A DNA stretch of 64,000 nt, from assembly GCA_017962845.1 (NCBI GenBank), contig JAGCUN010000006.1:2336-66335 (forward strand), given 5' to 3'. Of this stretch, positions 49,101-60,918 are shown in pieces. This DNA is from Bacteroidales bacterium. GTDB lineage: Bacteria > Bacteroidota > Bacteroidia > Bacteroidales > WCHB1-69. The notes under the pieces are model-generated. The model had not been told where the DNA came from. It did not search any database and worked only from the letters and a program-made list of their open reading frames with translations. The translations under genes were made by a program, and so were the position numbers. Position 1 is the stretch's first letter. Every line of letters starts with the position of its first letter.

Positions 49101-49603
49101 TATTGTATGGGTGAGAAATAGAAGGTGGCGATATTCATATTGCGCATGACACCTCTCATCTCAACAGATGCCAAGTCTCTATGATAAAACTCATCACGCT
49201 GATAAGTAGCGGCATCCTTTACCAAAGGCAACTCCCCTACTTCCGACTTGGAATAGGAGGGCTGAGCGGGGAAGAGCAGTTCTGTAACGCCCAACTCCTC
49301 AGCAGGATAGTCGATAAAATGCGAGGAAACAACCTCACAATGCACGCCGCTGCAGAGGGGGATCTCCAGCAGTGAGACCGCGACGGGCACCTGCGGCTGA
49401 CCCACCTCTGAAGAGAGCGTGGCACCTTCCATAGAAAGGCGGGAGAAACTGCCGTCGGGAGTAGAAACATTCGTCACCTCCAATGGCGCTGCTGTGCAAT
49501 GCAGGCGTAACCGGCCAGGATTATTTTCTTGCACACTGACAATCTGCGCATTTAGCACAATGACAGATAACAAAAAAAAGGATGTCAGAAGGAATCTTTT
49601 CAT
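46196..49603 (-). CDS. C25 (gingipain, Kgp-like) cysteine peptidase with propeptide and T9SS CTD
   Basis: Propeptide GQPQVP; FVLLVGD, TDLYY, PD.FYGRFSA, catalytic YTAH and GNCC, YHLMGDPS; C-terminal VYPVPA...DMNGR...GLYLI; TAATTTTG box at 49655-49662. Confidence 0.9.
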   Translation of the reverse strand: MKRFLLTSFFLLSVIVLNAQIVSVQENNPGRLRLHCTAAPLEVTNVSTPDGSFSRLSMEGATLSSEVGQPQVPVAVSLLEIPLCSGVHCEVVSSHFIDYPAEELGVTELLFPAQPSYSKSEVGELPLVKDAATYQRDEFYHRDLASVEMRGVMRNMNIATFYFSPIQYNPVTRTIRVYDEVEILVEFDNPDLPATYTMKSLHGNAFVNGLASRVLNPMQPQNREEVYNRPVKMLIVSHSMFRGQLDSFIAWKQRQGLLVDVAYTDDPQVGTTTTSISNYIKSLYNNATDNNPAPTFVLLVGDVAQIPAFSTHVSGESHVTDLYYFTWTDGDNIPDCFYGRFSAQNANQLANILEKVMQYEQYAMPDPAYLNDAVLVAGTDGNYGPTHANGQINYLSNNYVNTAFGYSNVYVHLYNSSSQAATIRAEIGAGVGYANYTAHCSSEGWSDPVFETNHIPSMNNADKYGFMVGNCCLSNKFDDSECFGEAILRAEKKGASGYIGGSNSTYWDEDYYWSVGLRSNINANPTYEAAHLGAYDRMFHTHGEPFSDWYVMAGSIITSGNLSVESSTSSRKLYYWEIYHLMGDPSMLPWLTNPVPMPVSADADLVAGLSTLTVQAVPYAYVALTENGVVIGASMADATGTANLSFAPLVPGNPYEIAATAQGYQPFFQTINVIAPNDAYVVTANPQLAAANEPNYNATVSINATLRNLGVADASNISAVLSTTSSDVTIVENTTTLASLGVSEQQSVDGAFSIYIHDDIADNTMVPFTITTTFNGNQTTTCNFNLTLQAPSLSNAAVSYAELEGNGNTAINPGETAMLRITTRNTGHAPAADAYSHLSCFYDQVTIVNDDLALGSIDAMGNAVSEFTIQVSDNVPEPFIVPFVHTIYAGAYSITDTVYLFVGECVEDFETGDFSKFNWTNSSNAWSVGNGAYEGSYCAVSKSNLSSGSSCTLSLSVTATANDTISYYRKYTAGSSWFGSDNFTFYIDNNVIETVSSTENWSRAAFPISAGTHTIRFVFTRDSYGGSSSTARIDYINFPMNGDMAPLAVEEAQRSLLNVYPVPATQQVTISLPSSDKGYQLVLFDMNGRQIQHRTITGGNSDYQLNINDLRSGLYLISLYNEDGVWTGKIVRAAE

Positions 49604-49690
49604 ATAATTTTGGATTTGGATTTGTAATTCTTGATGCCTAATATTTTGAGCTGACAAAATTACAAAAAAATCCAAATATTGAAAAAGAAT

Positions 49691-51769
49691 TTAGCGTTTT
49701 CTCAAACATCGCACACTGAACCCCATATTTTTCACATTGAGTTCAGGTTCAAGCGCAGCGCAAGTGTAAGGCACATAAACCGATACTGCACTGATGGGAG
49801 CGTAATGGTCATTCACAGTCCAGAAATTGGCATACAACATCAAATCAATGTATTGACCGTATAAAGCATCATAGCGTCCCGCCCCACGAGCATTGAATCC
49901 CGAATTGGGTGAGGTACCCTCATAGCCTGACACCCAATAGAGAGAACTCGGTGACTTGATTTGTTCGGCAGTGCCACCTGCCGCCGCCAACATGATCATA
50001 TATTCATCCACAGTTGGCAACGCCCATCCCTCAGGGCATATTCCCTGAACGTATGGACCAAAGTACCCCATCGAGTCGGCTGGCACAGCGCTATTGTCAC
50101 CCTCGGACACCCGCACCGCCGAATACCAACTATACATCTTTCCATAAATATTCTCCAATGAATCTATTCCATTGTAATAAAAATAATTAGAGACATCAGT
50201 ACCATCCGAATAATGGGTACTCCGCGCATTCTCACCCGTCCAGCACTGACAACCGATACGCACTGATGAATAGCGGAAACCGTCGAAGTCGCTGACCGAA
50301 TCCGCAGGGGTGCCGCAGGGCGGATAGACGACATTCACACGCTGGGTGCAATCCAATGTCAAGCCACACTCATCCTCAACGGTCCACGTCACAATGGTAC
50401 TGCCAACGGGATACATGTTGCCTGACGGTGCATCATTGGAAATCGTGTAGTCCACACCATCCAGAGCAGGAGAATGGTAATAAACGGGGTTGCCGATGTC
50501 CATCAACGTTGTGTCGCAAGCGCCATAGGCCAGCACCACACTCGTGTCGGTCGGACAGGTAAAAGTTGCTTCCGATGAAATCGGAGGAATCACATATAGA
50601 TCCAACGACACCAAGCTGTCGAAGCCCTGCGCGGTTGTTAAGTGAATCAGATAGTTTCCGGAGACAGTCCCCGCTTGAAAAACAGTATCAGCGGTCGCAT
50701 ACGGGAAAGCATTGGAGCAGACGCTATCCGTAATTTCCACAAGGGCCACGGGATTTACCTTGATTTTCAAGGTAATCACACTATCGCAACCATGAACCGA
50801 CTGTAGTGTAACCCGATAGGTATAGGGTTCCGCCTGAGGGGTGGAGATATCCAGTCCCGTAAAAATCGGGTTGACTTGCGATGTATAGGGAAGTGCCGAT
50901 GCACTCACGGTCTCATAACAAGTGTCTTTGTCATACGGTTCATACACCCAAGCCGAACTGGTGACATTCAGGGTGTCGCTATTGAAAATCACGTATGCAT
51001 CATACGAGGTACTCACATCGGGGCTCACCGTCATACTGGCACTTTTAGGGTTGTCGAGCCAGTAGGCGTACGCATCTGTGCCAAAATCGCGCACAGCACG
51101 GATGCGCACTTTTGTACGAGTAGGGTTTGAATGGTCGATGGGGTTTCGGGGGTCATAGAAATACTGGCTTCCCCTGACAACGAGGAAGTTGTTGCCCGTT
51201 CGTGTGGAGGTCCAGTAGTCGTGACCATCAGAACTATTATACGCATACATCCATCGCATACCGTTAGGATCCCCACCCGCATCAATGATGGAGCTTTCAA
51301 TAAACGGAATCAGTCCGAAAATGTGGCGGAGTTGGATGGCATCGGGGATATACCAACCGTTGTAGAAATCCACGGCCTCGGCTGCGGGCGAATGGCCTGA
51401 CTCCAGCAATATACGGGTGTTTTTCTTCCCCTCGTACGACCATTCTGAAATGCCGTATCGCGCCACGAACTCATACGCATGGTTTTCTATTTCAGCCGGA
51501 ATGGTGGCACCTTCATCCAACAAAAAATAAGACTTGTTGTTGCTATTGCTCACCCAGCCAATATCATTCAATGCAACCGCCCAACCCTCTACCGGATTGT
51601 CGGGGTTGACATAGCAAATCACACCTTTCGAACCGTCGGGGAACTCATACACATCGCCAATCTGATAGATCTGCGCCATGATTGCGCCGGCATGCACCAA
51701 CACGATCGCCAGCACTACAATCTTTCTGAAAAACATCTTCAAAGCATTCATTGTCTTACTCTTTTTCAT
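49691..51769 (-). CDS. Secreted protein: N-terminal DUF1566-like domain, GCDS repeats, HYR-like domain, C-terminal FISUMP domain
   Basis: YQIGDVY..DGSKGVICYV..GWYIP..YWTST..IRAVRDF; YPVG.T.VTWTV.D; DFDG..Y..V.IG.QCWT.EN...GICPEGWALPT...GFSVRCL. Confidence 0.8.
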   Translation of the reverse strand: MKKSKTMNALKMFFRKIVVLAIVLVHAGAIMAQIYQIGDVYEFPDGSKGVICYVNPDNPVEGWAVALNDIGWVSNSNNKSYFLLDEGATIPAEIENHAYEFVARYGISEWSYEGKKNTRILLESGHSPAAEAVDFYNGWYIPDAIQLRHIFGLIPFIESSIIDAGGDPNGMRWMYAYNSSDGHDYWTSTRTGNNFLVVRGSQYFYDPRNPIDHSNPTRTKVRIRAVRDFGTDAYAYWLDNPKSASMTVSPDVSTSYDAYVIFNSDTLNVTSSAWVYEPYDKDTCYETVSASALPYTSQVNPIFTGLDISTPQAEPYTYRVTLQSVHGCDSVITLKIKVNPVALVEITDSVCSNAFPYATADTVFQAGTVSGNYLIHLTTAQGFDSLVSLDLYVIPPISSEATFTCPTDTSVVLAYGACDTTLMDIGNPVYYHSPALDGVDYTISNDAPSGNMYPVGSTIVTWTVEDECGLTLDCTQRVNVVYPPCGTPADSVSDFDGFRYSSVRIGCQCWTGENARSTHYSDGTDVSNYFYYNGIDSLENIYGKMYSWYSAVRVSEGDNSAVPADSMGYFGPYVQGICPEGWALPTVDEYMIMLAAAGGTAEQIKSPSSLYWVSGYEGTSPNSGFNARGAGRYDALYGQYIDLMLYANFWTVNDHYAPISAVSVYVPYTCAALEPELNVKNMGFSVRCLRKR

Positions 51770-51783
51770 ATTTGTAATACTGA

Positions 51784-54700
51784 CTAAAAATCAATGGAGG
51801 GACGGACATGGTGCAGGGCATCTTTTGTATTGGACATAAAATGTCCTGAATAATCCAGATGCCAACATCCGTTATCATCTTTTTCAGAAGAGGAGAGGTA
51901 GTAATAGGTCAATGTGCTCAAAGTAGTGGCGCCGTATGCACTTAAGCGGCTTAGGGACTTATTCACCTGCGCCCGATTGCCGAACACGAGGTTCAACTCG
52001 CCCATGGAGGGCAGATACCATCCTCTTGCTTCCGTCGGGTTAACATTTCGAATCACAGGGTCATAATAATAGCAGAAATAGGCCGCTGGGGCATTTTCGG
52101 CAAAACTCTCACTTTCAGCCATTTCTGCATACTGCTTGATGGTCAGCGTATTACCAAATCCATCCAAATCGAACAGAGCATCCCGCTGATTGGGCAGTTT
52201 ACGCTTGCTATGCACAAACTTGTAAACATATTCGCTTGAGTTGCTGGAGGTTCCTCTTCTTGCCCATTTCACGGTATTAGGGTCATCCACGAGAGCCACT
52301 GCCTTACCATGCTGACCGGTAAGGTCAACATAATAGACCACTCCAATAGGGACCTTATCAGAACGGAGGAACGAGTCGACACGAATCACTGAGCCATCGC
52401 TGCACAGCACGTCGCCGGGCGCCATCACGGCGGGGATTTCACCCTCTTGCCAGGTGAGCTTGGGGGTCGTCACCATCACCCCCATCGTGGTCGTTTCGCC
52501 ACGGCAGATTTCATTGTCTGTCGTGTCAATAATCAGAATAATCAGGTTGATAATATCCAGACTATCACAGCCATTGGCGGTGTGTACAATTTCAGAATAA
52601 CGTCCTGTGGTGTCGTATGCGTGTCCTTTCCACATATAAGGATTTCCATTCAACTCGAAATTGGAGGTCACTATCGTAGTATCGTGATATGGGGGCGAAT
52701 TCACGGTCAGGACGAAAGTGACGATGGAGTCGCATCCATTGGCCGCCCCACCCGGGAAACTCTTGGTAAAGAAGTAGGTTCCAGCATTCTTGACCGCTTC
52801 GTCCAATTCCGCTTGAGAGGCCACCTCCGGAACAACATGGTAGATGTCATCGTAGGGCAGAGAATGACTCTGGCACACTTCATCATAAATCGTAGAGTGA
52901 GCTCTCTCGAACACATCCGCCATCACCACACCTGGTTCGTGTTGCACGATAGCGCTCCAGCCGGCACCCGTACTCATGCCCGCCACGAAATAGAGCGAAA
53001 GCTCATTCCCGCTGGAGGTGATGAGGTCAGGAAGCGGACTGTTATACGTAAACACATTCAACATAGAATCAGGGACAAGTTCATGACCAGAAAAGACGTA
53101 TAGATGTGACGTGGTGGAGAGGTTCAATTCTTCAAATAAAATACTGATGGGTTCTCCATCGGTGCTCGTGAAAGTATGGAAGATATTCTCACCTTGTGTA
53201 TAAGCTCCCGACTCACCTCCCGAGTCATACATGCGGTACACATCCCCGCAACCCATCGTGGTCGCGCCCTCTGCAAAATTCATCGTATTATTGGTCAAGC
53301 CGTTAACTCTCGGGCAGTAGCCCTCCTTGATCACGCTGGTATATAGGATGGAGCGCTGGCGAATTTCGGTGGTGTCATACACCGACCATCCATCGTCGGT
53401 CATCACCTCAGATTTCAACAATTGGGTGAGGTGATAATCCCCGTACCAGTTGAGAGTATAGGGCGGCTCCAGGGTAGCTCGCACCTGCAATACCGCATCG
53501 TCTTCGTAGCAGACCGTATCGTTGCGCATAAGCACGTGACAGGCATCCACCATATTGGTGAGAACACCAATATATGTAGTATCAGACGGGTCGGCCACCG
53601 TATAGTCACACCCGTCCGGATCGATGATGTGGGTGGGGTAAATCTTAGCCGGTGTGGTGGTGGAATATGTATCCGTAATGGGCACTCCAGCCTCTCCGCT
53701 GTAGGTGCGCGTCTCAACGCCCGTCCCATTTTCAAAAGCCATCACCAACTGTATTACGCCACTATGTGCTTCGTTGTCGGGAGTGAAGGACAAGGTGACA
53801 TCCTTCCCGGCACAGAAAGTGCCGCCTCCCGTTGTGGTGACCCATGGCGCGCTTGTGACACTCAAATAAATACTGTCATAGATATGATCCTGACAGCCTG
53901 TCTGTGTAATATCCACCTTATACCAACCATCGGAAGCACCGTGTGAGATAAAAATGTAGGGTTCTGGGGAGGTGGAATAAAAACCATCCGGTCCCACCCA
54001 TTCATAATTGAAAATATTGGCCACCTGCAAAGCGTGAATCTGGATTGTGGAACCCTCACAGGTAGTATTGGCCCTCAGTCCGCCGTCGAACCATGTCTTC
54101 TGCAAATCGGCCAGTGTGTAGGGATAGAAATTCACATGGAAGAACGCACCGCAGGCGTCGGCAATCAAACAAGAATAGGGGTGACCGGCGGACATGGGAA
54201 CATTGACGAAACTGCCAGTTTGATTTTCACCCAACAACGTTCCCTGGCGATCTGCTTCGCTGTACAATGAATAGGTGTACGGCAGTGTGCCATTGGCGCC
54301 CTTCACAAAGACGCTTCCGCTGGTGGAGCTTGAGTCGCAGAGAAAAGCGGCAAGATAGTCAAACTGTACCGTCCCTCCACTGTATTGGATGGTGTCGAAA
54401 ACGGCTGTCGGTGAGCACAACGACGACTCTCCCTCAGGGTAGATGCGTATCACGTAAGTTCCTTGTATGCCGATGCGGATGGGGTCGCCCAGCTGGTATT
54501 CGCCGATATCGTATCCTCCCGCGGGGCCGTCCACCACCTGCATTCTCGTATGCAAGGGGGTGGAGACGGGGGCTATATCCAAACCCGTAGAAGGCGATGT
54601 ATTGTGGCTGACACGGACGAACTCGCCCTGTGTGTAGGTGATGTACTGGTCTGTGCACGCCTGAGTAACATTGTATGCCGGCGTTTCCGCCAATTCCACA

Positions 54701-56583
54701 CTATACACATCCCCGAAAGAGACATTCTGGCGCAGATTGAAGGAGTCGCAAGGGGTGATAATCTCAAACTGGTACGGGCCGGAGGGGAGGCAATAATCGT
54801 GTATGGCCAATGCATGCCCGGAGGGGTCGCCATCAACGGAAAGTGTGTTCCCGAAACTGTTTTTTACCACCTGCCACTCCTGCAAAGCCGCATTGTAAAT
54901 GGCAACGAAATTGTAGCGGTTGCCGTGGGGGCTCTCCACCAATCGTACAATCGTCCCGTCGGGACTCATGTCGGTGCTGTTATGCTCGCTCACGCGAATG
55001 GTACGGAGCACCGAGCAGCAATGGTCATTACCATCTGTATGCATTTCCCAAGCAGGGTGGGTGGTGCTGACGTGCAAATCGTATGTCAAATCATCGGTTC
55101 GGTCGAAAAGCACACATCCATGACCGTCCACTAACTTTCGCTCAACACTGTGGGTGAAAGGCAGTTGCTCGGAATAGTAGGCCACCATATCGGAGAGTTT
55201 GAGCTTGCTGGGCGCATCAATCTTGGAAACCGTATCAGTTTTCATGACATGGTCAGTAAGCGGGTCAATATAGATCCACGTAAGCGGATGAGTATAATGG
55301 TAACGGTTAACAGCATGGTCCTCAGCGGGATTGACATACGACGGATGATACGAAGTATAGCGAATGCTATGCTCATCGGTATGAACATAACTGTTCTGCC
55401 CACATGCACCCGAGCCGGTGATGGAGTCCGTCTTTTCAGTATGGTTAGTCACGAAAGAGGCTGCATCCGGGAGGTGATACATAAATGCACGGCTGACCGT
55501 TGTATCGGCGCAGCCCGCCCAGGCAAAGTGATAGTCCAACCGTATCTCCTTGTCATACATATCACAATAGCGATGGGCTTCCGCAATGGTATCATACAGG
55601 TCGGAACTGGCAGACGAGGACAACGGGAAGGCTTTCCAATCCCCTACGGGATGACCATCGTAAGAGAAACGGTACTGCATGTGAGATTGCAGCGCATTGA
55701 CATAATAACTCAAAAATGGTTTCAGCGTGGCAGAAATCTTCACCACATTGCTGTCAAGCGGATTGCCGGAGGAGGCATACACGCCAATCGCATCCAACAG
55801 CGGCACCGACACCACTTCCACAGTTTGTTCAATCCGAGGAAGCCCATATCCACAGCCATCAGTAAGGAAAAAATCCCAATCACCACTGGGCATGTCATCT
55901 ATGGTGTAGTAATCTTTATAATCGTATCGTAACGGGTCAGTACCAGAATATAGCGGTGCGGCGAAATCGACCGTACGCAGAGTGTCCAATACATCATTAT
56001 GGTTGACAACAGTAAGATGGTATGGGAAGCGCCCATTGTCGATAAACAGCTGCACACGCCCTGAAGGCGCACACGACAAAGAGGGTCGCAACCCGAAATC
56101 ATCCTCCGTTAGGGCTGTCATATAAATGGAGGAGACCGTAGGAACAGTGTATGTGGTATGGATGGTCAGCACAGTCTGTGTGTCCACTTTGACGTAGCCG
56201 CCCATTCCATCATCACACAACGCCTCCATACCGAAAAAGTACGTTCCATAATCCATCAAAAGAGTATCCACGCCTCCATAGTAGTAACTTCCGGCATAGC
56301 GCGCTGAATCTTCCTCCCTTTCGCGATAATAGACACGCACCGAAGAGAGTCCTGTAGCCGACAAATCAGCGACCGGTTGATCAGAATCATCCAACAAACA
56401 AAAACACACCTTGCCATTGTTGAAACAGGTGGCATCTACGACGGTAAATCTGACATTGAAGGGGCAATTTTGGGCGAGAGCAGGTTGAAAAATAGAAGAA
56501 AAAAGTAAAAAAAGTGACAAAAAAGGCGCAATTATTGCGAATTTCAGATGCCCATTTTTCTGCATAACTACTAATGTTTTCAA
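51784..56583 (-). CDS. Large secreted Cys-rich Ig-like repeat protein with CUB domain and C-terminal DUF1566-like domain
   Basis: Signal peptide ending ALAQ; YDSGGESGAY...F.SDG..I.I.F...GWSA (CUB); GCDS repeats; PIGVVYYVD..GQHG.AVAL...GWYLPSMGEL...VRP..DF. Start TTG 56583 or ATG 56565; TACTTTTG box at 56623-56630. Confidence 0.75.
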   Translation of the reverse strand: MKTLVVMQKNGHLKFAIIAPFLSLFLLFSSIFQPALAQNCPFNVRFTVVDATCFNNGKVCFCLLDDSDQPVADLSATGLSSVRVYYREREEDSARYAGSYYYGGVDTLLMDYGTYFFGMEALCDDGMGGYVKVDTQTVLTIHTTYTVPTVSSIYMTALTEDDFGLRPSLSCAPSGRVQLFIDNGRFPYHLTVVNHNDVLDTLRTVDFAAPLYSGTDPLRYDYKDYYTIDDMPSGDWDFFLTDGCGYGLPRIEQTVEVVSVPLLDAIGVYASSGNPLDSNVVKISATLKPFLSYYVNALQSHMQYRFSYDGHPVGDWKAFPLSSSASSDLYDTIAEAHRYCDMYDKEIRLDYHFAWAGCADTTVSRAFMYHLPDAASFVTNHTEKTDSITGSGACGQNSYVHTDEHSIRYTSYHPSYVNPAEDHAVNRYHYTHPLTWIYIDPLTDHVMKTDTVSKIDAPSKLKLSDMVAYYSEQLPFTHSVERKLVDGHGCVLFDRTDDLTYDLHVSTTHPAWEMHTDGNDHCCSVLRTIRVSEHNSTDMSPDGTIVRLVESPHGNRYNFVAIYNAALQEWQVVKNSFGNTLSVDGDPSGHALAIHDYCLPSGPYQFEIITPCDSFNLRQNVSFGDVYSVELAETPAYNVTQACTDQYITYTQGEFVRVSHNTSPSTGLDIAPVSTPLHTRMQVVDGPAGGYDIGEYQLGDPIRIGIQGTYVIRIYPEGESSLCSPTAVFDTIQYSGGTVQFDYLAAFLCDSSSTSGSVFVKGANGTLPYTYSLYSEADRQGTLLGENQTGSFVNVPMSAGHPYSCLIADACGAFFHVNFYPYTLADLQKTWFDGGLRANTTCEGSTIQIHALQVANIFNYEWVGPDGFYSTSPEPYIFISHGASDGWYKVDITQTGCQDHIYDSIYLSVTSAPWVTTTGGGTFCAGKDVTLSFTPDNEAHSGVIQLVMAFENGTGVETRTYSGEAGVPITDTYSTTTPAKIYPTHIIDPDGCDYTVADPSDTTYIGVLTNMVDACHVLMRNDTVCYEDDAVLQVRATLEPPYTLNWYGDYHLTQLLKSEVMTDDGWSVYDTTEIRQRSILYTSVIKEGYCPRVNGLTNNTMNFAEGATTMGCGDVYRMYDSGGESGAYTQGENIFHTFTSTDGEPISILFEELNLSTTSHLYVFSGHELVPDSMLNVFTYNSPLPDLITSSGNELSLYFVAGMSTGAGWSAIVQHEPGVVMADVFERAHSTIYDEVCQSHSLPYDDIYHVVPEVASQAELDEAVKNAGTYFFTKSFPGGAANGCDSIVTFVLTVNSPPYHDTTIVTSNFELNGNPYMWKGHAYDTTGRYSEIVHTANGCDSLDIINLIILIIDTTDNEICRGETTTMGVMVTTPKLTWQEGEIPAVMAPGDVLCSDGSVIRVDSFLRSDKVPIGVVYYVDLTGQHGKAVALVDDPNTVKWARRGTSSNSSEYVYKFVHSKRKLPNQRDALFDLDGFGNTLTIKQYAEMAESESFAENAPAAYFCYYYDPVIRNVNPTEARGWYLPSMGELNLVFGNRAQVNKSLSRLSAYGATTLSTLTYYYLSSSEKDDNGCWHLDYSGHFMSNTKDALHHVRPSIDF

Positions 56584-56865
56584 TGAGTTATGATTTTTAT
56601 ATGACTAAAATTTTTAAGGGCGCAAAAGTACAAAAAAATCCATACAGTCACCACATTTTTTCAATCTACTAAAAAAAGCTTTCAATTAACTAAAAAATAC
56701 CTCACTTTTTACTGAACAATTTGCATACAATTTCCCCAAAAAAACCTCGCCATAAAATCCCCCCAAAAAAAATCCCACATTCGAATCAAGCTTTTCACCC
56801 ATCGAACCCCGAAGCCTATGCATCAGGCACTGAGCATGGCTCAACCGTAGCCCCTCTACAAAAAC

Positions 56866-56896
56866 AAAAAGGCCGCCCCAAACGGAACGGCCTCTT
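56866..56896 (-). terminator. Intrinsic terminator after the FISUMP/fibre gene
   Basis: Minus strand AGGCCGTTCC-GTTT-GGGGCGGCCT followed by TTTT. Confidence 0.8.
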
Positions 56897-56931
56897 GAAA
56901 AAATATCTCGAATTATGAATTTCACCCGATG

Positions 56932-59808
56932 TTACTCCGCGTCGCGAACGCAACGGACAGAAGCACCGTGGCACTTTTTGTTAGTATCCTGCCCCACCCC
57001 AGTCCAACTATAATTAATTCTATAACGAATACTCTCGGTATTGCTGGCTTGTGTAGATGTCCAAAAAAGGGCGTACTGCCCTACGTAGTAACGATTTTGG
57101 CTATCGTTGAACGTACCTGCGGGGATGGCAGAAAAACCTTTGACATTGCGTTCAGCATAGCTGTAGTTGCCAGGTGCGGTTGCACCTGCATTTGACTCCC
57201 AATAGCAGCCCGTTGACAATTTCCCTGCTCCAGAACCTGCAGTTGCCGTTGTTGTGCCTGTTCTTTTCACAACACCGGCCTCTGTCAGCATAGTCTCCCA
57301 TTCTGCCTCCGACGGGAGATGCCAACCCAACGGACAGATACCACGACGATTTCCGTTCTCCAAGTTTAAGACCGGAGACCATCCGGCGGTGTTCTGAGAA
57401 TTAGAGACCTCAGGATCCCCAGTTTTAAAGGTGTCAACAGCAGCACACCAGTTGTAAAGCAGACCCAAACGCGGAACAATCTCAGAGTAGGTTCCATTTA
57501 TAAGACTGTTATTGCTGAGATTCTTTATCTCAACGGAACCACTATTAGGACTTCCTGATGCCCATAGTGCCATCTTACTCGTATAAGATGTTCTAGTTGG
57601 AGGTGCGGTAATTCCGAAAGGTTGATCTTTCCCCAGCAAAATCAGGGCATCGGTTGCAGGACTGTGTTCGGTGCGCAAGTTCTCGGCCATCCAGCATTGG
57701 GCGCCGATCTGCACCACTGGATAAACATTTCCGTCGTAGTCGGTAACCGCATAGATACCGTTCTCATCGGCAAATTCACGGCCGTCATCCGCGCCGTTAT
57801 GCCCCTGGCCTGCATATAAGCCGCTCACATGTGCTGACAAACCAGTGCAAGGAGAAAGAACAGCTTTTCCTAACGACACAGTTTGGGTGGCTGTGCAGCC
57901 TGAGGCATTTGTGGCGACGATGTCGTACGTGCCTCCTGGTGCAGCATAAGCATGCCATGTGTCAGGCCACGGTTGAGGATTATTCACAACAGGTGAACCA
58001 TCGCCCCAGTTGATAGACACTACATCAGAAGAAAAGGAGGTGACTTCCACAACCAACATGTTATCGCATGCGGAGAGTGTCGGGGCGGTGCCTGCCGAAG
58101 TGACAGTAACAGTAACGGTGGCGATAAGAGGGAAATTATCACTGATATTTGTGGCCGTACAATAGATAGTTTTAGTACCTGTGGTGTTGAACGTTATCGT
58201 GACAGGGTTGGTGTTGTACGTGGTGGTGCCGTCTGACCATTCGTAGGTGTACTCCTCTACATCTCCCATGGAAGGTTCGGCAAAAAACTCCTTACTCACC
58301 GTGGATCCCTCGCAAAGACTAAGATTGGCAGTAGCAGGTGTGATGATCAGCGAAAGGTCATCACCGCTGGTAGTGTTCACGGGGCCATAGGTGGTGGTGC
58401 TGTCCTCATTGCTCACTTTCACCATCACGCAATAGTCGGTGTTGGGGTCAAGTCCGGTAAGATTCTGCGTGTAGTCTTCATTGGTGTAGAGGGTGCCTGA
58501 GACGGGCCAGGCGGTAAAACCATCCTCGTCGGCCGAACAGCCAGTTCCTTGCTTGTAGAAAATCTGTACGGTTCCTTCAGTGGGCTCCATGAAATCGAGA
58601 CCGTTGACAGTCACCTGGAAGCCAGTCGGAATTTCGGGCAGGTCGCTGCTGAGTGTGGCGGTAGGTGCATGGGCGGGAGTGCGGGCGCTCACCACGCTAG
58701 AGGTGGCGGAACCGGCCAGGTTGGTCGCCTTGGCGGTTACATAATAGGTCTTGTAGGCATCCAGACCCGTGAAAGTGTAGATAGGTGTGGTGCTGGTGAA
58801 GCACGTCGGCGAGCTCATGTCGCTATTCTCGGAAATGCAGAATTCATAGGAGATGATGGCGATTCCATTGTCATTGGCAACAGCGTTGGCTTTCATGGAG
58901 GTGGAATAAATGTCGCTCAATGAAACCGTTACAGTCGGAGGAACGGCGTGCATCAGAGCATCCAAAGCATCCTCCAAGGCGGTGATTCTGCGGCTCAGGC
59001 TGTCGAAGACAGTCAGAAGGTCGCAGGCGTTCACCACCACATTGCCGCAGTTGGTGACGGTGGTGGCCTCGATGTTAAAGCCGCTGGGCACGGTGTTGGT
59101 GCCAGTGAAACTGTTGTCGGCGGCCACTTTCGCGTAGTCGGCGGCGTCGGTCAGTTCCGCTACGGTGGTGGGCACATCGATGTTGATGGTTTGGTTGGTG
59201 CTTTGGTCAACATAGAAGCGGCCGTTATCCACAGCTGTATTGTTTTTTGCAATTATAATCGCGGCGTTGCCAGGTGCGTCTGGCTTATCACTCAAATCGT
59301 TGTAACTACCTGTAGTGGCCACAGTGGCGAAGGACGGTTTGTTCCGGATGAAGGCAGCGGTGGTATTGTCGCTTTCATTCCAGTCGGCCTGCACCTGTGC
59401 CGGGATGGCGCTCGGAGAGACCTCAAGGGCGTACGGCACGGCTGATACTGGCGAATTGACGGTGACATCTCCGCTGGCCAGATGGTAGGTCACCGTAATA
59501 GTGGCATCTGCCCATCCCGTAACCGCCGAAAGATCATTGGTGGGATGCCCCGCCACAGGCCATACGCGTCCAGTTCCGCCTATGGAGAAGGAAATCACGC
59601 CGTTGTGGTTGGTGTGGGCCGTCCGCGTTTCAAAATACTGCTCCGAGCCTCCTGTGATAATACTGACATCAACAGGAATATCCGCGTCCTGCACAAACTT
59701 GTTACTTGCGTCGCGAACGACCGCCTGATAGCTCAATGTTGTGGTCTGAGCGACAGCAGACACTACCGTAAGCAATGCCATTATGGTGAACAACAAAAAT
59801 TTTTTCAT
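56932..59808 (-). CDS. Secreted fibre-like protein: YQAVVRD N-domain, tail-fibre-like motifs, coiled coil, Fn3 x2, PKD-like, C-terminal FISUMP
   Basis: LSYQAVVRDASN...AVPYAL; QADWNE...FIRNKP, ATVATTGSYNDLSDKP; FTGLDAYKTYYV; INWGDGS; DYDGNVYPVVQIG.QCWMAENLRT, GICPLGWHLPS, SVRCVRD. Confidence 0.8.
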   Translation of the reverse strand: MKKFLLFTIMALLTVVSAVAQTTTLSYQAVVRDASNKFVQDADIPVDVSIITGGSEQYFETRTAHTNHNGVISFSIGGTGRVWPVAGHPTNDLSAVTGWADATITVTYHLASGDVTVNSPVSAVPYALEVSPSAIPAQVQADWNESDNTTAAFIRNKPSFATVATTGSYNDLSDKPDAPGNAAIIIAKNNTAVDNGRFYVDQSTNQTINIDVPTTVAELTDAADYAKVAADNSFTGTNTVPSGFNIEATTVTNCGNVVVNACDLLTVFDSLSRRITALEDALDALMHAVPPTVTVSLSDIYSTSMKANAVANDNGIAIISYEFCISENSDMSSPTCFTSTTPIYTFTGLDAYKTYYVTAKATNLAGSATSSVVSARTPAHAPTATLSSDLPEIPTGFQVTVNGLDFMEPTEGTVQIFYKQGTGCSADEDGFTAWPVSGTLYTNEDYTQNLTGLDPNTDYCVMVKVSNEDSTTTYGPVNTTSGDDLSLIITPATANLSLCEGSTVSKEFFAEPSMGDVEEYTYEWSDGTTTYNTNPVTITFNTTGTKTIYCTATNISDNFPLIATVTVTVTSAGTAPTLSACDNMLVVEVTSFSSDVVSINWGDGSPVVNNPQPWPDTWHAYAAPGGTYDIVATNASGCTATQTVSLGKAVLSPCTGLSAHVSGLYAGQGHNGADDGREFADENGIYAVTDYDGNVYPVVQIGAQCWMAENLRTEHSPATDALILLGKDQPFGITAPPTRTSYTSKMALWASGSPNSGSVEIKNLSNNSLINGTYSEIVPRLGLLYNWCAAVDTFKTGDPEVSNSQNTAGWSPVLNLENGNRRGICPLGWHLPSEAEWETMLTEAGVVKRTGTTTATAGSGAGKLSTGCYWESNAGATAPGNYSYAERNVKGFSAIPAGTFNDSQNRYYVGQYALFWTSTQASNTESIRYRINYSWTGVGQDTNKKCHGASVRCVRDAE

Positions 59809-59860
59809 AGGTATAAGGATTAGATTGGTTATTATAAATATTGATAAGTGTATAATTCTG

Positions 59861-60637
59861 CTAATAGTTTAAGACACAGCGCACGCTATGACCATTGGCT
59901 TTTTCGCTCGGAATGAATTCAGAAGTGCTGCACTCCGTCCCGAACTTGCAAGCGATCGCGAGAGTGCTTTCCTCACGAATCGTCCACACGTAGGCGTTTA
60001 CCAGCAGATTTTCGAACAGCCCATAAGTGCTGTTGTATCGGCCTCCAGGGAGAAGGGTGAATTGTGAAATATCCGTGCCTGGGATGGGAAGCCATTGGGT
60101 GTTGGCCATCAGCTCCTCCGGTGTATAGGTAGCTATCACGTACTCCATCTCGGCATCGGTGGGTATATGCCATCCGTCAGGACAGATGCCCTGACCGCTG
60201 TTGTATTGCGTGGCTGCATCCCATGTGTAGAGATGTCCAAAGACATCGAACAGGTCAGATGAGGAGTAACCAACTGCCGAATAGGTCATAATGTTGGGAA
60301 CGTCGGTATTGTCGGCATAGTGCTCCGTTCTCAGGTTTTGCGCAGTCCAGCAATAGAGCCCAAGGTCCACTGCAGGGTAGATGTTGTGGTCCACATCCTC
60401 CACTTCGGTGATGTCCCCGCAGGCCGATTGTCCACCCTGCTGTATGCCCTCTGTAATGATGGGGACGGAGGCTCCGTCAGGAGCCAGCGCATCGAAAACC
60501 TGTCCCACACTGGCGGAAATCCCCCCGTTATTGGCATATCCTGACACCAGCAACGGCATTTCCACACTGCCCGTTTGCGCAAAAACAGACAAACAGGTGG
60601 AAAAAAGGAGAAATAAAAAACAATATTTTTTCATCAT
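59861..60637 (-). CDS. Small secreted protein: SVGQV..EGIQQ partner domain plus FISUMP domain
   Basis: Signal peptide; GGISASVGQVF...EGIQQ; DVDHN.Y..V.LG..CWT.QNLR, GICPDGWHIPT, SVRCV; TATTTTTG box at 60730-60737. Confidence 0.8.
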   Translation of the reverse strand: MMKKYCFLFLLFSTCLSVFAQTGSVEMPLLVSGYANNGGISASVGQVFDALAPDGASVPIITEGIQQGGQSACGDITEVEDVDHNIYPAVDLGLYCWTAQNLRTEHYADNTDVPNIMTYSAVGYSSSDLFDVFGHLYTWDAATQYNSGQGICPDGWHIPTDAEMEYVIATYTPEELMANTQWLPIPGTDISQFTLLPGGRYNSTYGLFENLLVNAYVWTIREESTLAIACKFGTECSTSEFIPSEKANGHSVRCVLNY

Positions 60638-60918
60638 ATTAGCAGATTTTCAACTACTTGAATTTCAATAATTTACTACAGATAATCAATCAGCAAACGA
60701 GCCTTAATTTTTCTTTATCAAATGATTTGCAAAAATACATAATTTTTTATTAATACAATGATTTGCTGAATTTTTTTTATATTTTACAGATAATTTTAAA
60801 AATTTTACTGAAATTTATGGACAAAATTCTTAAAGAAGCATTTAATAAAATTATTGAAAAAAATCATCTAAAAAATCACCAAAAATATCCTACTTTTGCA
60901 CCCTAAACATCTACTATT

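What the first reader, a model, noticed from the sequence alone, without database searches (positions are those of the whole stretch)
49691..60637. Four-gene secreted lectin-fold/fibre system whose proteins end in FISUMP or DUF1566 instead of a T9SS signal
Seen: four co-oriented Sec-signal proteins in two transcription units (60637-56932 ending in a terminator; 56583-49691). None has a lipobox or T9SS CTD, and all end in a C-type-lectin-fold domain. They are built from modules that usually precede a CTD (GCDS repeats, HYR, CUB, PKD). The 258-aa gene has the SVGQV..EGIQQ domain that, from recalled Bacteroidota gene pairs, normally carries a CTD and sits upstream of a YQAVVRD protein; here FISUMP stands where the CTD would be. 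The FISUMP domains of the 258-aa and 692-aa proteins share a subtype (CWT..N.R..HY.D.TDV; GRY...YG....L...A..WT) distinct from that of the fibre protein. Inference: an undescribed modular surface-appendage system in which one FISUMP subtype acts as an export, docking or assembly tag and the others as variable adhesive tips.
Basis: partly seen in the sequence, partly recalled or inferred. Interest (0 to 1): 0.75.

Follow-up and report, generated by a model that had tools for sequence, protein, structure and literature searches.

The report
Lectin-tipped fibre with clip-on partner
A rumen Bacteroidales bacterium carries two separate gene pairs for secreted lectin-ended proteins; one pair is a phage-like adhesive fibre plus a small, widely conserved partner protein that has lost its usual type IX secretion tag and carries a lectin head instead.

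Summary
The four genes, their Sec signals, the terminator between them and the FISUMP ends are real. They are not one four-gene system. Related genomes carry either pair without the other.

Pair A (258 aa + 958 aa) is the interesting one.
- The 958-aa protein belongs to a large family with a conserved 'YQAVVRD' N-terminal domain. That domain is distantly related to the N-domain of Bdellovibrio MAT chimeric fibres. Its base is conserved and its FISUMP tip varies between strains.
- The 258-aa protein starts with a ~45-residue motif that across Bacteroidota nearly always lies just upstream of such a fibre gene (26 of 28 phylum-wide).
- That motif normally sits in a ~160-aa protein ending in a T9SS sorting domain (CTD; 21 of 21 sampled).

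Pair B (1599 aa + 692 aa) is a strain-variable pair of modular adhesin-like proteins with DUF1566-like and FISUMP domains.

A terminal FISUMP is the family norm (20 of 21 FISUMP proteins in this genome). No robust 'tag' subtype exists. The N-terminal motif, not FISUMP, is the likely docking element.

Binding was not tested: the complex prediction never ran.

This scan has already found the fibre + T9SS-partner cassette on other DNA.

The parts
59861..60637 (-). Partner protein (258 aa): Sec signal, N-terminal partner motif, C-terminal FISUMP in place of the usual T9SS CTD
   Evidence: ORF. FISUMP PF09603 76.5 bits and TIGR02145 80.5 bits at residues 83-256. No CTD. Full-length orthologues in 4 of 18 same-genus genomes.
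60404..60577 (-). Partner motif (residues 21-78; GG..S.GQ....EG[IV]QQ), starting at the predicted signal-peptide cleavage site; no Pfam or NCBIfam family
   Evidence: Alignments A1 and A3. Profile hits in 77 of 121 family genomes and 23 of 401 phylum genomes. A fibre N-domain lies downstream of 26 of 28 phylum hits.
56932..59808 (-). MAT-like chimeric fibre (958 aa): Sec signal, YQAVVRD N-domain, one phage tail-fibre-type repeat, FN3/PKD-like shaft, FISUMP tip
59419..59748 (-). Conserved fibre N-domain (residues 21-130, 'SYQAVVRD...VPYAL')
   Evidence: NF053851 Bdello_MAT_N E 1.1e-3 for this protein. 13 of 16 picked family members hit it, best E 2.5e-12, all below the 60-bit cut-off. Both paralogues in the genome hit it. 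Alignments A2 and A4.
59278..59406 (-). Single copy of a repeat (QADWNE..A.I.NKP..ATVATTGSYNDLSDKP) that occurs in long tandem arrays in phage tail-fibre-like proteins
   Evidence: the matching proteins P0028, P0030, P0033, P0037, P0046, P0051 and P0118 lack a signal peptide. Of these, P0030 and P0033 lie on contigs of about 33-36 kb, as do several other listed hits.
56935..57738 (-). FISUMP tip of the fibre (residues 691-958, with an insertion), strongly variable between strains
   Evidence: PF09603 100.3 bits. Among the 26 closest homologues, median identity is 64% for the tip against 90% for residues 21-300.
56867..56896 (-). Terminator-like hairpin that ends the partner-fibre unit
   Evidence: 13 pairs, 7 G-C, followed by a T-run.
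60730..60737 (-). TATTTTTG, which fits the Bacteroidota -7 promoter box TAnnTTTG (consensus recalled, not from a call), about 95 nt upstream of the 258-aa start
   Evidence: Sequence read.
51784..56583 (-). Giant secreted modular protein (1599 aa; probable start 56565): Cys-rich Ig-like modules, GCDS repeats, DUF1566-like C-terminal domain. A separate module, not part of the fibre pair
51787..52431 (-). DUF1566/Lcl_C-like C-terminal domain of the 1599-aa protein (residues 1385-1599)
   Evidence: No direct Pfam hit. 761 relatives at E<=1e-3. 16 of 28 family members hit PF07603. ESM Atlas neighbours are DUF1566/Lcl_C clusters.
49691..51769 (-). 692-aa secreted protein: N-terminal DUF1566-like domain, GCDS repeats plus HYR, C-terminal FISUMP; 15 nt downstream of the 1599-aa gene
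   Evidence: The N-terminal domain against profile A6 gives hhalign probability 98.8%, E 4.6e-17. Orthologues always follow the 1599-aa orthologue.
56623..56630 (-). TACTTTTG, a -7-box-like motif upstream of the 1599-aa gene (consensus recalled, not from a call)
   Evidence: Sequence read.

Best explanation
The region holds two independent two-gene modules.

MODULE A (60637-56932)
- This is a Bacteroidota version of the 'mosaic adhesive trimer' (MAT) type of chimeric fibre.
- The 958-aa protein is exported by Sec. It has a conserved N-terminal base domain, a shaft containing one phage tail-fibre-type repeat and FN3/PKD-like beads, and a strain-variable FISUMP (lectin-like) tip that most likely binds a glycan in the rumen.
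- The 258-aa gene directly upstream is the fibre's dedicated partner. Its first ~45 mature residues are a motif that almost never occurs except in front of such a fibre gene.
- I infer that this motif docks onto the fibre's N-terminal base domain.
- In the canonical partner the motif is followed only by a T9SS sorting domain. That would get a ~60-residue docking peptide exported and, by what is known of T9SS cargo, linked to the cell surface.
- In this locus the sorting domain has been exchanged for a FISUMP domain. The partner would then clip a further lectin head onto the fibre base, or hold the base on a surface glycan, instead of providing a T9SS-made anchor.

MODULE B (56583-49691)
- This is an accessory, strain-variable pair of large secreted modular proteins ending in DUF1566-like and FISUMP domains. 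It looks like an ordinary adhesin or glycan-binding repertoire.

SHOWN VERSUS INFERRED
- Shown: domain content, gene linkage, separability of the two modules, the CTD-to-FISUMP exchange, and the gradient from conserved base to variable tip.
- Inferred: trimer formation, physical docking, surface location, the ligand, and how the fibre crosses the outer membrane.
For: SEPARABILITY OF THE TWO MODULES
- G014 has all four genes. G078 has 258+958 followed directly by the C25 peptidase gene. G094 has the 258-aa gene plus a 1237-aa YQAVVRD protein.
- Orthologues of the 1599- and 692-aa genes are adjacent in G014, G106 and G032. G106 and G032 lack an orthologue of the 258-aa protein.
- A terminator lies between the units.

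MAT LINK
- NF053851 Bdello_MAT_N hits the 958-aa protein at E 1.1e-3.
- It hits 13 of 16 family members that I picked for diversity from 66, best E 2.5e-12, and both other YQAVVRD proteins of the genome at 8.2e-9 and 2.1e-7.
- One of those two has collagen-like repeats, which form triple helices.
- Caulton et al. 2024 (PMC10769870, passages read) describe a conserved ~130-aa beta-rich domain right after the signal peptide and exchangeable tips, one of them a C-type lectin fold. They leave the surface element bound by the N-domain unidentified.
- Base-to-tip gradient among the 26 closest homologues: median identity 90% (residues 21-300), 80% (middle), 64% (FISUMP), 56.5% (last 110 aa).

PARTNER LINKAGE
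- All 3 YQAVVRD genes of this genome have a motif-bearing gene directly upstream.
- Family sample: the motif is in 77 of 121 genomes and the fibre N-domain in 82 of 121. At least 81 of the 150 listed motif hits have a listed fibre N-domain less than 3 kb downstream on the same strand. This is a lower bound, because only 150 of 317 fibre hits were listed.
- Phylum sample: 26 of 28 motif hits outside this genome have the fibre N-domain 315-1546 nt downstream.
- Partner and fibre N-domain distances co-vary: Mantel r 0.915, 0 of 2000 permutations reach it. This is confounded by shared descent, but the set includes the three paralogous pairs of this genome.

CANONICAL PARTNER VERSUS VARIANT
- 21 of 21 sampled ~160-aa partners carry Por_Secre_tail, 20 above Pfam's cut-off.
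- The 258-aa protein and the 449-aa paralogue on contig C42 carry FISUMP instead.
- 18 of the 28 motif hits lying in 247-496-aa frames have a FISUMP match in the same frame.

GENOME CONTEXT
- The genome has a T9SS: 97 CTD matches and an SprA gene.
- Metatranscriptome contigs from bovine gut runs of three studies cover parts of all four genes at 92-99% identity.
Against: - No binding test could be run. The one complex job that was accepted failed, and later hand-ins were not accepted.
- The MAT match is below NCBIfam's 60-bit cut-off in every case. It covers only profile positions 2 to about 95 of 162, which include the signal peptide.
- Many fibre genes have no partner: the fibre N-domain is in 98 of 400 phylum genomes against 22 of 400 for the motif. 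The partner is therefore not needed by the family as a whole.
- With neither a CTD nor a lipobox, no known Bacteroidota route takes either protein of module A across the outer membrane. A periplasmic location is not excluded.
- The short likeness between the partner's EGVQQ and a strand of the fibre N-domain is not significant (hhalign probability 0.7%).
- The AlphaFold model of the 258-aa protein was unusable (mean pLDDT 32).
- RNA-library contigs do not prove transcription, because DNA carry-over is possible.
Confidence: 0.6

Rival explanations
1. One reading: all four genes form one surface-appendage system. One FISUMP subtype serves as the export, docking or assembly tag and the other lectin domains serve as tips.
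For: - The four genes are co-oriented and all products are Sec-exported.
- The FISUMP domains of the 258-aa, 692-aa and C42 449-aa proteins are each other's best or near-best matches.
- G014 keeps all four genes together.
Against: - Each pair occurs without the other: G078 and G094 have the 258-aa/fibre pair, with no 1599/692 orthologue found in G078 and only a 33%-identical relative of the 1599-aa protein on another contig in G094; G106 and G032 have the 1599/692 pair only.
- A terminator and a separate promoter-like box divide the locus.
- The 258- and 692-aa FISUMP domains are only 29% identical, and the tree gives no supported clade that sets them apart from the fibre's FISUMP.
- 20 of the 21 FISUMP proteins in the genome end in the domain, so position alone marks nothing.
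Confidence: 0.07
2. The partner is a T9SS export adaptor: the fibre rides out bound to the CTD-bearing peptide. The copy here has lost the CTD, so it is a degenerate or re-purposed locus. Its fibre would stay in the periplasm, or depend in trans on the canonical partner encoded on contig C49.
For: - 21 of 21 canonical partners carry a CTD, and the fibres have none.
- The genome keeps one canonical partner, a 160-aa protein on C49.
- T9SS is present.
Against: - Motif-plus-FISUMP partners are intact and recurrent. At least 18 loci have them, and several are followed by fibres.
- The 258-aa gene is conserved at 66-91% identity in four relatives together with its fibre.
- Partner and fibre N-domain have diverged together, so cross-use of the C49 partner is not obvious.
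- Bdellovibrio, the home of the described MAT fibres, is not known to have a T9SS (my own knowledge, no call). Its fibres are reported on the cell surface (PMC10769870, passages; PMC13689555, passages).
- In the titles and abstracts listed by one search I saw no description of co-export of an untagged protein by T9SS (listing only).
Confidence: 0.15
3. There is no physical system at all. These are independent secreted or periplasmic glycan-binding paralogues of a much-expanded family, and the small upstream gene is merely co-regulated or co-inherited with the fibre gene.
For: - FISUMP is massively expanded: 27 domain matches in this 2.5-Mb genome, and p258's FISUMP domain matched 99 of 121 family genomes, often dozens of times per genome.
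- Many fibres lack a partner.
- No binding evidence was obtained.
Against: - A 45-residue motif that is kept across classes of Bacteroidota and found next to the fibre gene in 26 of 28 cases is hard to explain without a direct functional tie.
- The motif is kept even when the rest of the protein is exchanged from CTD to FISUMP.
Confidence: 0.13
4. The locus is a remnant of a prophage tail-fibre module, or the tip variability is written by a diversity-generating retroelement.
For: - The 958-aa protein carries one copy of a repeat typical of phage tail-fibre-like proteins.
- FISUMP and DUF1566 domains are known DGR targets (PMC5758913, passages read).
Against: - Both proteins have Sec signal peptides.
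- The flanks are RNase R and a C25 peptidase, and they are conserved in relatives.
- No reverse transcriptase (RVT_1) was found in the 94.9%-complete genome.
Confidence: 0.03

Closest known systems
Mosaic adhesive trimer (MAT) chimeric fibre proteins of Bdellovibrio bacteriovorus (Caulton et al. 2024, PMC10769870; NCBIfam NF053851 Bdello_MAT_N)
   Same: - Sec signal followed at once by a conserved beta-rich N-domain.
- Phage-like shaft modules.
- Conserved base with exchangeable C-terminal tips, one of which in Bdellovibrio is a C-type lectin fold.
- No recognised outer-membrane export or anchor signal.
- Sequence relatedness of the N-domain, sub-threshold.
   Different: - A different phylum and a non-predatory rumen organism.
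- The scores lie below the family cut-off, and only the first half of the profile matches.
- The tip is FISUMP.
- A dedicated upstream partner gene is present. The word 'operon' does not occur in the main text of the MAT paper, and its two uses of 'upstream' concern cloning flanks and a cited title. I could not read its supplementary tables 3-4 on MATs of other bacteria.
T9SS type A cargo proteins (Por_Secre_tail, PF18962 / TIGR04183)
   Same: - The canonical form of the partner is a minimal T9SS cargo: signal peptide, about 60 mature residues, then the CTD.
- NCBI names one member only 'T9SS type A sorting domain-containing protein'.
   Different: - The partner in this window has no CTD. FISUMP occupies that position.
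- None of the four proteins of the finding is a T9SS cargo by sequence.
FISUMP (Fib_succ_major, PF09603/TIGR02145) and DUF1566/Lcl_C (PF07603) lectin-like domains, the 'CLec2' group of DGR target domains (Wu et al. 2018, PMC5758913)
   Same: - Three proteins end in bona fide FISUMP domains.
- The 1599-aa C-terminus and the 692-aa N-terminus belong to a DUF1566-like family.
- The paper reports that the motifs overlap and that little is known of their function (passages read).
   Different: - No DGR is present.
- Here the domains sit on SPI-type secreted proteins, not on the lipoproteins the paper says are frequent.
- One of the domains replaces a secretion tag.
Phage tail fibres with separately encoded assembly or adaptor proteins
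   Same: - A shared repeat module.
- A small accessory gene next to the fibre gene.
- A variable receptor-binding tip.
   Different: - The proteins are chromosomal and Sec-exported.
- The accessory gene lies upstream and is itself secreted.
- No phage genes are nearby.

Membership tests
MAT chimeric fibres (NF053851 Bdello_MAT_N) | Conserved ~130-aa beta-rich N-domain directly after the signal peptide, scoring above the family cut-off of 60 bits | tested here: inconclusive
   - The 958-aa protein scores 18.8 bits, E 1.1e-3.
- 13 of 16 picked relatives hit at E<=0.1, best 46.9 bits and E 2.5e-12. All are below the cut-off and match profile positions 2 to about 95 of 162.
- The two paralogues score 35.5 and 30.9 bits.
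- Reading: a homologous superfamily is likely, but this is not a member of the curated subfamily.
MAT chimeric fibres | Conserved base with exchangeable, variable C-terminal tip | tested here: met
   - Median identity among the 26 closest homologues is 90% (residues 21-300) against 64% (FISUMP) and 56.5% (last 110 aa).
- Family members carry many different C-terminal Pfam domains.
MAT chimeric fibres | Homotrimeric fibre displayed on the cell surface | not testable with these tools
   - The only hint is the collagen-like repeats in the paralogue on C49.
- The complex prediction did not run.
FISUMP (PF09603 / TIGR02145) | Domain match above the curated cut-off | tested here: met
   - 258 aa: 76.5 and 80.5 bits.
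- 958 aa: 100.3 and 103.3 bits.
- 692 aa: 80.8 and 73.9 bits.
- Cut-offs are 33.9 and 41.65 bits.
- The 1599-aa protein has no match.
DUF1566 / Lcl_C (PF07603) | Domain match to PF07603 above 34.9 bits | tested here: not met
   - No Pfam hit for the 1599-aa C-terminus or the 692-aa N-terminus, even at E 10.
- The six-frame genome search finds none in the window.
- Superfamily-level relatedness is supported: 16 of 28 homologues of the 1599-aa C-terminal domain hit PF07603, best E 1.1e-8.
- The 692-aa N-terminus matches that family's profile at hhalign probability 98.8%.
- ESM Atlas neighbours are DUF1566/Lcl_C clusters.
T9SS type A cargo | C-terminal Por_Secre_tail sorting domain | tested here: not met
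   - None in any of the four proteins.
- Present in the neighbouring C25 peptidase and in 21 of 21 canonical partners.
Bacteroidota surface lipoproteins | Lipobox Cys at the end of the signal peptide, followed by an acidic export signal | tested here: not met
   - By inspection, all four signal peptides end in A|Q.
- Four other FISUMP proteins of the genome do have ...C(E/D/K)K(D/E).
DGR variable proteins | Reverse transcriptase plus template repeat in the genome | tested here: not met
   No RVT_1 match in the 94.9%-complete genome. A template repeat was not searched for.
Bacteroidota 'partner + MAT-like fibre' cassette (not found described in print; noted before by this scan) | Partner motif gene directly upstream of, and co-oriented with, a gene that starts with the YQAVVRD-type N-domain | tested here: met
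   - The gap in the window is 52 nt.
- The same arrangement holds for all 3 fibre genes of the genome.
- It holds for 26 of 28 motif hits phylum-wide.
Bacteroidota 'partner + MAT-like fibre' cassette | Partner is a ~160-aa protein ending in a T9SS CTD | tested here: not met
   The 258-aa partner ends in FISUMP. This is the variant feature of the locus.

The most novel reading that the evidence does not exclude
The ~45-residue partner motif is a general clip-on docking peptide for the base of MAT-like fibres, and what is fused behind it is interchangeable.
- A T9SS sorting domain would yield an LPS-linked anchor peptide. That would be the long-sought 'surface element' that holds a MAT N-domain.
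- A lectin head, as here, would yield a two-component fibre with lectins at both ends.
- Intact CTD-less partners would then mean one of two things: Bacteroidota MAT-like fibres cross the outer membrane by a route independent of their partner's T9SS tag, or FISUMP itself holds the fibre base on a cell-surface glycan.
Probability: 0.3. Interest if true: 0.8.

Novelty: new variant of a known kind. Interest (0 to 1): 0.6.

Why it matters
- MAT fibres were described in 2024 as the prey-recognition fibres of Bdellovibrio. What holds their conserved N-domain on the cell was left unidentified (PMC10769870, passage read).
- In Bacteroidota a related fibre family comes with a tiny, tightly linked partner gene. 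That partner is an obvious candidate for the missing element and would link the fibres to type IX secretion.
- The locus studied here is a natural domain-swap experiment: the same docking motif, but with a lectin domain where the secretion tag should be.
- Comparing the two forms in one organism could show whether the partner exports, anchors or merely decorates the fibre. This genome has one canonical pair and two FISUMP-type pairs.
- It also gives FISUMP, a very large domain family on which little functional information is available (PMC5758913, passage read), a concrete structural context as the variable tip of an adhesive fibre in a rumen bacterium.

Tried and rejected
- COMPLEX PREDICTION of three fibre N-domains with three partner motifs. 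The first job was accepted and then failed. A smaller version was never accepted because the queue was full or gave no usable answer (listed for the operators). There is therefore no verdict on binding.
- ALPHAFOLD MODEL of the whole 258-aa protein, from 20 close homologues. [quoted passage not shown]
- SECOND STRUCTURE JOB, for the DUF1566-like end of the 1599-aa protein.
- SEQUENCE SEARCH OF THE PDB with the 1599-aa C-terminus and the 692-aa N-terminus. Only insignificant hits came back, E 0.24-1.1.
- DIRECT BLASTP between those two domains. Weak, best E 0.006 over 49 residues.
- FISUMP SUBTYPE IDEA. Rejected after BLAST and a tree.
- PARTNER MOTIF AS A COPY OF THE LAST STRANDS OF THE FIBRE N-DOMAIN. 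Rejected (hhalign probability 0.7%).
- DGR EXPLANATION of tip variability. Rejected, no RT found.
- CUB in the 1599-aa protein. Not found.
- SUPPLEMENTARY TABLES of Caulton et al. 2024.
- PREVOTELLA INTERMEDIA T9SS CARGO PAPER (PMC11969387; outline and section 3.1 read). The part read says nothing on such small cargo.
- LITERATURE SEARCHES for the cassette, titles and abstracts of the listings read only:
  - 'mosaic adhesive trimer': 7 papers, all on predatory bacteria, mostly Bdellovibrio, by title.
  - T9SS + tail fibre + Bacteroidetes terms.
  - T9SS + piggyback / co-secretion.
  - MAT fibre + Bacteroidota + T9SS. For PMC13689555 I also read passages; there 'Bacteroidota' occurs only in a reference title.
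  - FISUMP terms: 10 papers, on DGRs, Fibrobacter, phages and Ornithobacterium.
  - None describes the partner or a Bacteroidota MAT-like fibre.

Full report
WHAT IS THERE

Four minus-strand ORFs lie at exactly the stated coordinates: 258 aa (59861-60637), 958 aa (56932-59808), 1599 aa (51784-56583) and 692 aa (49691-51769). The 1599-aa gene probably starts at the ATG at 56565, because the orthologue alignment and the Atlas record both begin at residue 7.

Each has a signal peptide ending ...A|Q. None has a canonical lipobox. Cys15 of the 258-aa protein is not conserved in its orthologues.

A 13-pair hairpin with a T-run sits right behind the 958-aa stop (56896-56867). Motifs that fit the Bacteroidota -7 box TAnnTTTG lie upstream of the 258-aa and 1599-aa genes; that consensus is recalled, not from a call. 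The two transcription units are therefore plausible.

The flanks are RNase R, divergent on the plus strand (60919-63045), and a C25 peptidase with a T9SS sorting domain.

DOMAINS

- FISUMP scores well above the curated cut-offs at the C-termini of the 258-, 958- and 692-aa proteins.
- HYR passes Pfam's cut-off in the 692-aa protein. PKD is sub-threshold in the 958-aa protein. Several of its close homologues carry precomputed FN3 or PKD hits.
- The 1599-aa protein has no Pfam or NCBIfam hit, even at E 10. In particular it has no CUB and no DUF1566.
- Its last 215 residues nevertheless belong to a large family: 761 relatives at E<=1e-3. Of 28 members that I aligned (the window's domain plus 27 mostly small homologues), 16 hit PF07603 Lcl_C/DUF1566 and no other family. 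The ESM Atlas neighbours agree.
- The N-terminal 200 residues of the 692-aa protein match the same family profile (hhalign probability 98.8%).
- The 'DUF1566' claim therefore holds at superfamily level only.
- None of the four proteins has a T9SS CTD. The genome as a whole has 97 such matches and an SprA translocon gene.
- The 'GCDS' repeats of the 692- and 1599-aa proteins recur in 11 other proteins of the genome.

FISUMP AT THE END IS THE RULE, NOT A SIGNAL

- The genome holds 27 Pfam-level FISUMP matches.
- With a local profile I found 21 proteins. In 20 of them the last FISUMP domain ends within 13 residues of the C-terminus.
- Their N-termini fall into classes: four small lipoproteins, eight proteins sharing a 'TVTLTFTG' N-domain, the YQAVVRD proteins, and others.
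- The FISUMP domains of the 258- and 692-aa proteins are only 29% identical.
- In a maximum-likelihood tree of 26 domains (two short fragments left out), the 692-aa domain pairs weakly with that of a 449-aa protein on contig C42 (80/74). The 258-aa and 958-aa domains sit unresolved in the same long-branched clade.
- There is no evidence for a special 'tag' subtype.

TWO MODULES, NOT ONE SYSTEM

- G014 keeps all four genes.
- In G078 the 258/958 pair is followed directly by the C25 peptidase gene, and the 1599-aa and 692-aa queries found no match in that genome.
- G094 has the 258-aa orthologue followed by a 1237-aa YQAVVRD protein. It holds only a 33%-identical 2143-aa relative of the 1599-aa protein on another contig, and no relative of the 692-aa N-terminus.
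- Orthologues of the 1599-aa protein (74-78% identity) occur in G014, G106 and G032. Each is followed by the 692-aa orthologue.
- G106 and G032 have no orthologue of the 258-aa protein.
- Each pair therefore exists without the other.

THE FIBRE

- The first 300 residues of the 958-aa protein find 363 proteins. Among the 147 proteins then stored start with a signal peptide plus '..SYQAVVRD..' and nearly all of those end in FISUMP.
- Other hits share only a ~40-residue repeat (QADWNE...NKP...ATVATSGSYNDL..KP). That repeat is present once in the 958-aa protein. It occurs in long tandem arrays in proteins without signal peptides, several of them on contigs of about 33-36 kb, which look like phage tail fibres.
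- NCBIfam's Bdello_MAT_N model hits the 958-aa protein weakly (E 1.1e-3).
- It hits 13 of 16 diverse family members that I picked (best E 2.5e-12) and both other YQAVVRD proteins of the genome. All scores are below the 60-bit cut-off.
- One of those paralogues (2096 aa) has collagen-like repeats and four FISUMP domains.
- Among the 26 closest homologues, identity falls from a median of 90% in residues 21-300 to 64% in the FISUMP tip.
- No reverse transcriptase is present in the genome.
- This is the layout that Caulton et al. 2024 describe for MAT fibres: a conserved N-domain after the signal peptide, exchangeable tips, and an anchor that has not been identified (PMC10769870, passages read).

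THE PARTNER

- Residues 21-78 of the 258-aa protein carry a motif (GG..S.GQ....EG[IV]QQ). It recurs in the genome in a 449-aa FISUMP protein on C42 and in a 160-aa CTD protein on C49. Each of these lies directly upstream of a YQAVVRD gene.
- A profile of the motif hits 77 of 121 genomes of the family, mostly in frames of 160-190 aa. The fibre N-domain hits 82 of 121.
- At least 81 of the 150 listed motif hits have a listed fibre N-domain less than 3 kb downstream on the same strand, in 52 genomes. This is a lower bound, because only 150 of 317 fibre hits were listed.
- In a sample of 400 other genomes across the phylum, the motif is in 22 and the fibre N-domain in 98. Of the 28 motif hits, 26 have the fibre N-domain 315-1546 nt downstream.
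- All 21 sampled ~160-aa partners carry Por_Secre_tail, 20 of them above Pfam's cut-off, and nothing else. NCBI names one simply 'T9SS type A sorting domain-containing protein'.
- FISUMP-bearing partners are a recurrent minority. 28 of the 150 listed hits lie in frames of 247-496 aa, and 18 of those have a FISUMP match in the same frame. 14 of the 28 are followed by a listed fibre N-domain.
- Distances among partner motifs and among the paired fibre N-domains correlate (Mantel r 0.915; 0 of 2000 permutations reach it). Shared descent inflates this figure, but the set includes the three paralogous pairs of this genome.

HOW IT MOST LIKELY WORKS

- Shown: the linkage, and the exchange of CTD for FISUMP.
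- Inferred: the motif docks on the fibre's N-domain. In the canonical form the T9SS exports the ~60-residue peptide and, as for other type A cargo, attaches it to the surface, which would give the fibre its anchor and possibly its way out.
- Here the motif instead carries a lectin domain. The partner would add a second lectin to the fibre base, or tie the base to a glycan.
- How a fibre without a CTD or lipid anchor crosses the outer membrane remains open. A periplasmic fate is not excluded.
- I could not test binding. The accepted complex job failed and no later one was taken. The single-chain model of the 258-aa protein was unusable.

EXPRESSION AND HABITAT

Contigs of bovine gut metatranscriptome runs from three studies cover parts of all four genes at 92-99% identity. 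One spans the 258/958 junction and one spans the 1599/692 junction. This fits a rumen organism and is compatible with transcription, but DNA carry-over cannot be excluded.

EARLIER WORK

- By title, the 7 papers that hold 'mosaic adhesive trimer' concern predatory bacteria, mostly Bdellovibrio.
- Three further searches found no description of the partner or of Bacteroidota MAT-like fibres; I read the listings, plus passages of one paper.
- The supplementary tables of the MAT paper that list MATs of other bacteria could not be read and may bear on this.
- This scan has noted the 'MAT-type fibre + tiny T9SS partner' cassette several times on other DNA. I reached the same reading independently, before that look-up.

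VERDICT

- The four-gene system and the FISUMP-tag idea are not supported.
- What remains is a new variant, with FISUMP replacing the secretion tag on the partner, of a fibre-plus-partner module related to a known fibre family. It sits next to an unrelated pair of modular lectin-ended proteins.

Noticed in passing
G000 contigs C24:4507-4722, C6:78240-78452, C31:54828-55031, C35:16617-16829, C31:40112-40327, C6:131191-131391, C35:23977-24192, C29:28114-28326 (outside the window): Eight FISUMP proteins share a 'TVTLTFTG..YVQLD.V.VTN...GWQE' N-terminal domain. Each has a Por_Secre_tail-like match near the N-terminus (about residues 80-160) instead of at the C-terminus. A CTD-like fold in a position where it cannot act as a C-terminal sorting signal is unexplained.
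   Followed up: no
G000:C42:63216-67734 (L004): This is a second FISUMP-type cassette: a 449-aa partner (motif + GCDS repeats + FISUMP), a 384-aa YQSVVRN fibre made of coiled-coil-like repeats with a small tip and no FISUMP, and a 662-aa FISUMP protein. The lectin head here may be supplied by separate proteins.
   Followed up: partly
G000:C49:26103-33587 (L005): This is the canonical cassette of the same genome: a 160-aa partner with a CTD, then a 2096-aa fibre with collagen-like (Scl/Lcl-type) repeats and four FISUMP domains.
   Followed up: partly
window 59142-59275: One metatranscriptome contig (run X1) skips 132 bases within the 958-aa gene, about residues 178-222 just after the phage-type repeat. 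This looks like a natural in-frame length variant of the shaft in a related strain.
   Followed up: no
window 46196-49675 (-): A C25 (gingipain-family) peptidase with propeptide, Ig-like domain and T9SS CTD lies 16 nt (or about 88 nt from the likelier ATG) downstream of the 692-aa gene. It is conserved next to the locus in G014 and G078. Whether it processes the neighbouring proteins is unknown.
   Followed up: no
window 28961-34705 (+): A 1914-aa protein carries many copies of the same GCDS repeat as the 692- and 1599-aa proteins and ends in a T9SS CTD.
   Followed up: no
phylum sample, family f32: In one family of another class, nearly every sampled genome has exactly one fibre N-domain gene of about 780 aa, and only one of them (G492) has a partner-motif hit. 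This is a partner-less, single-copy lineage of the fibre family.
   Followed up: no
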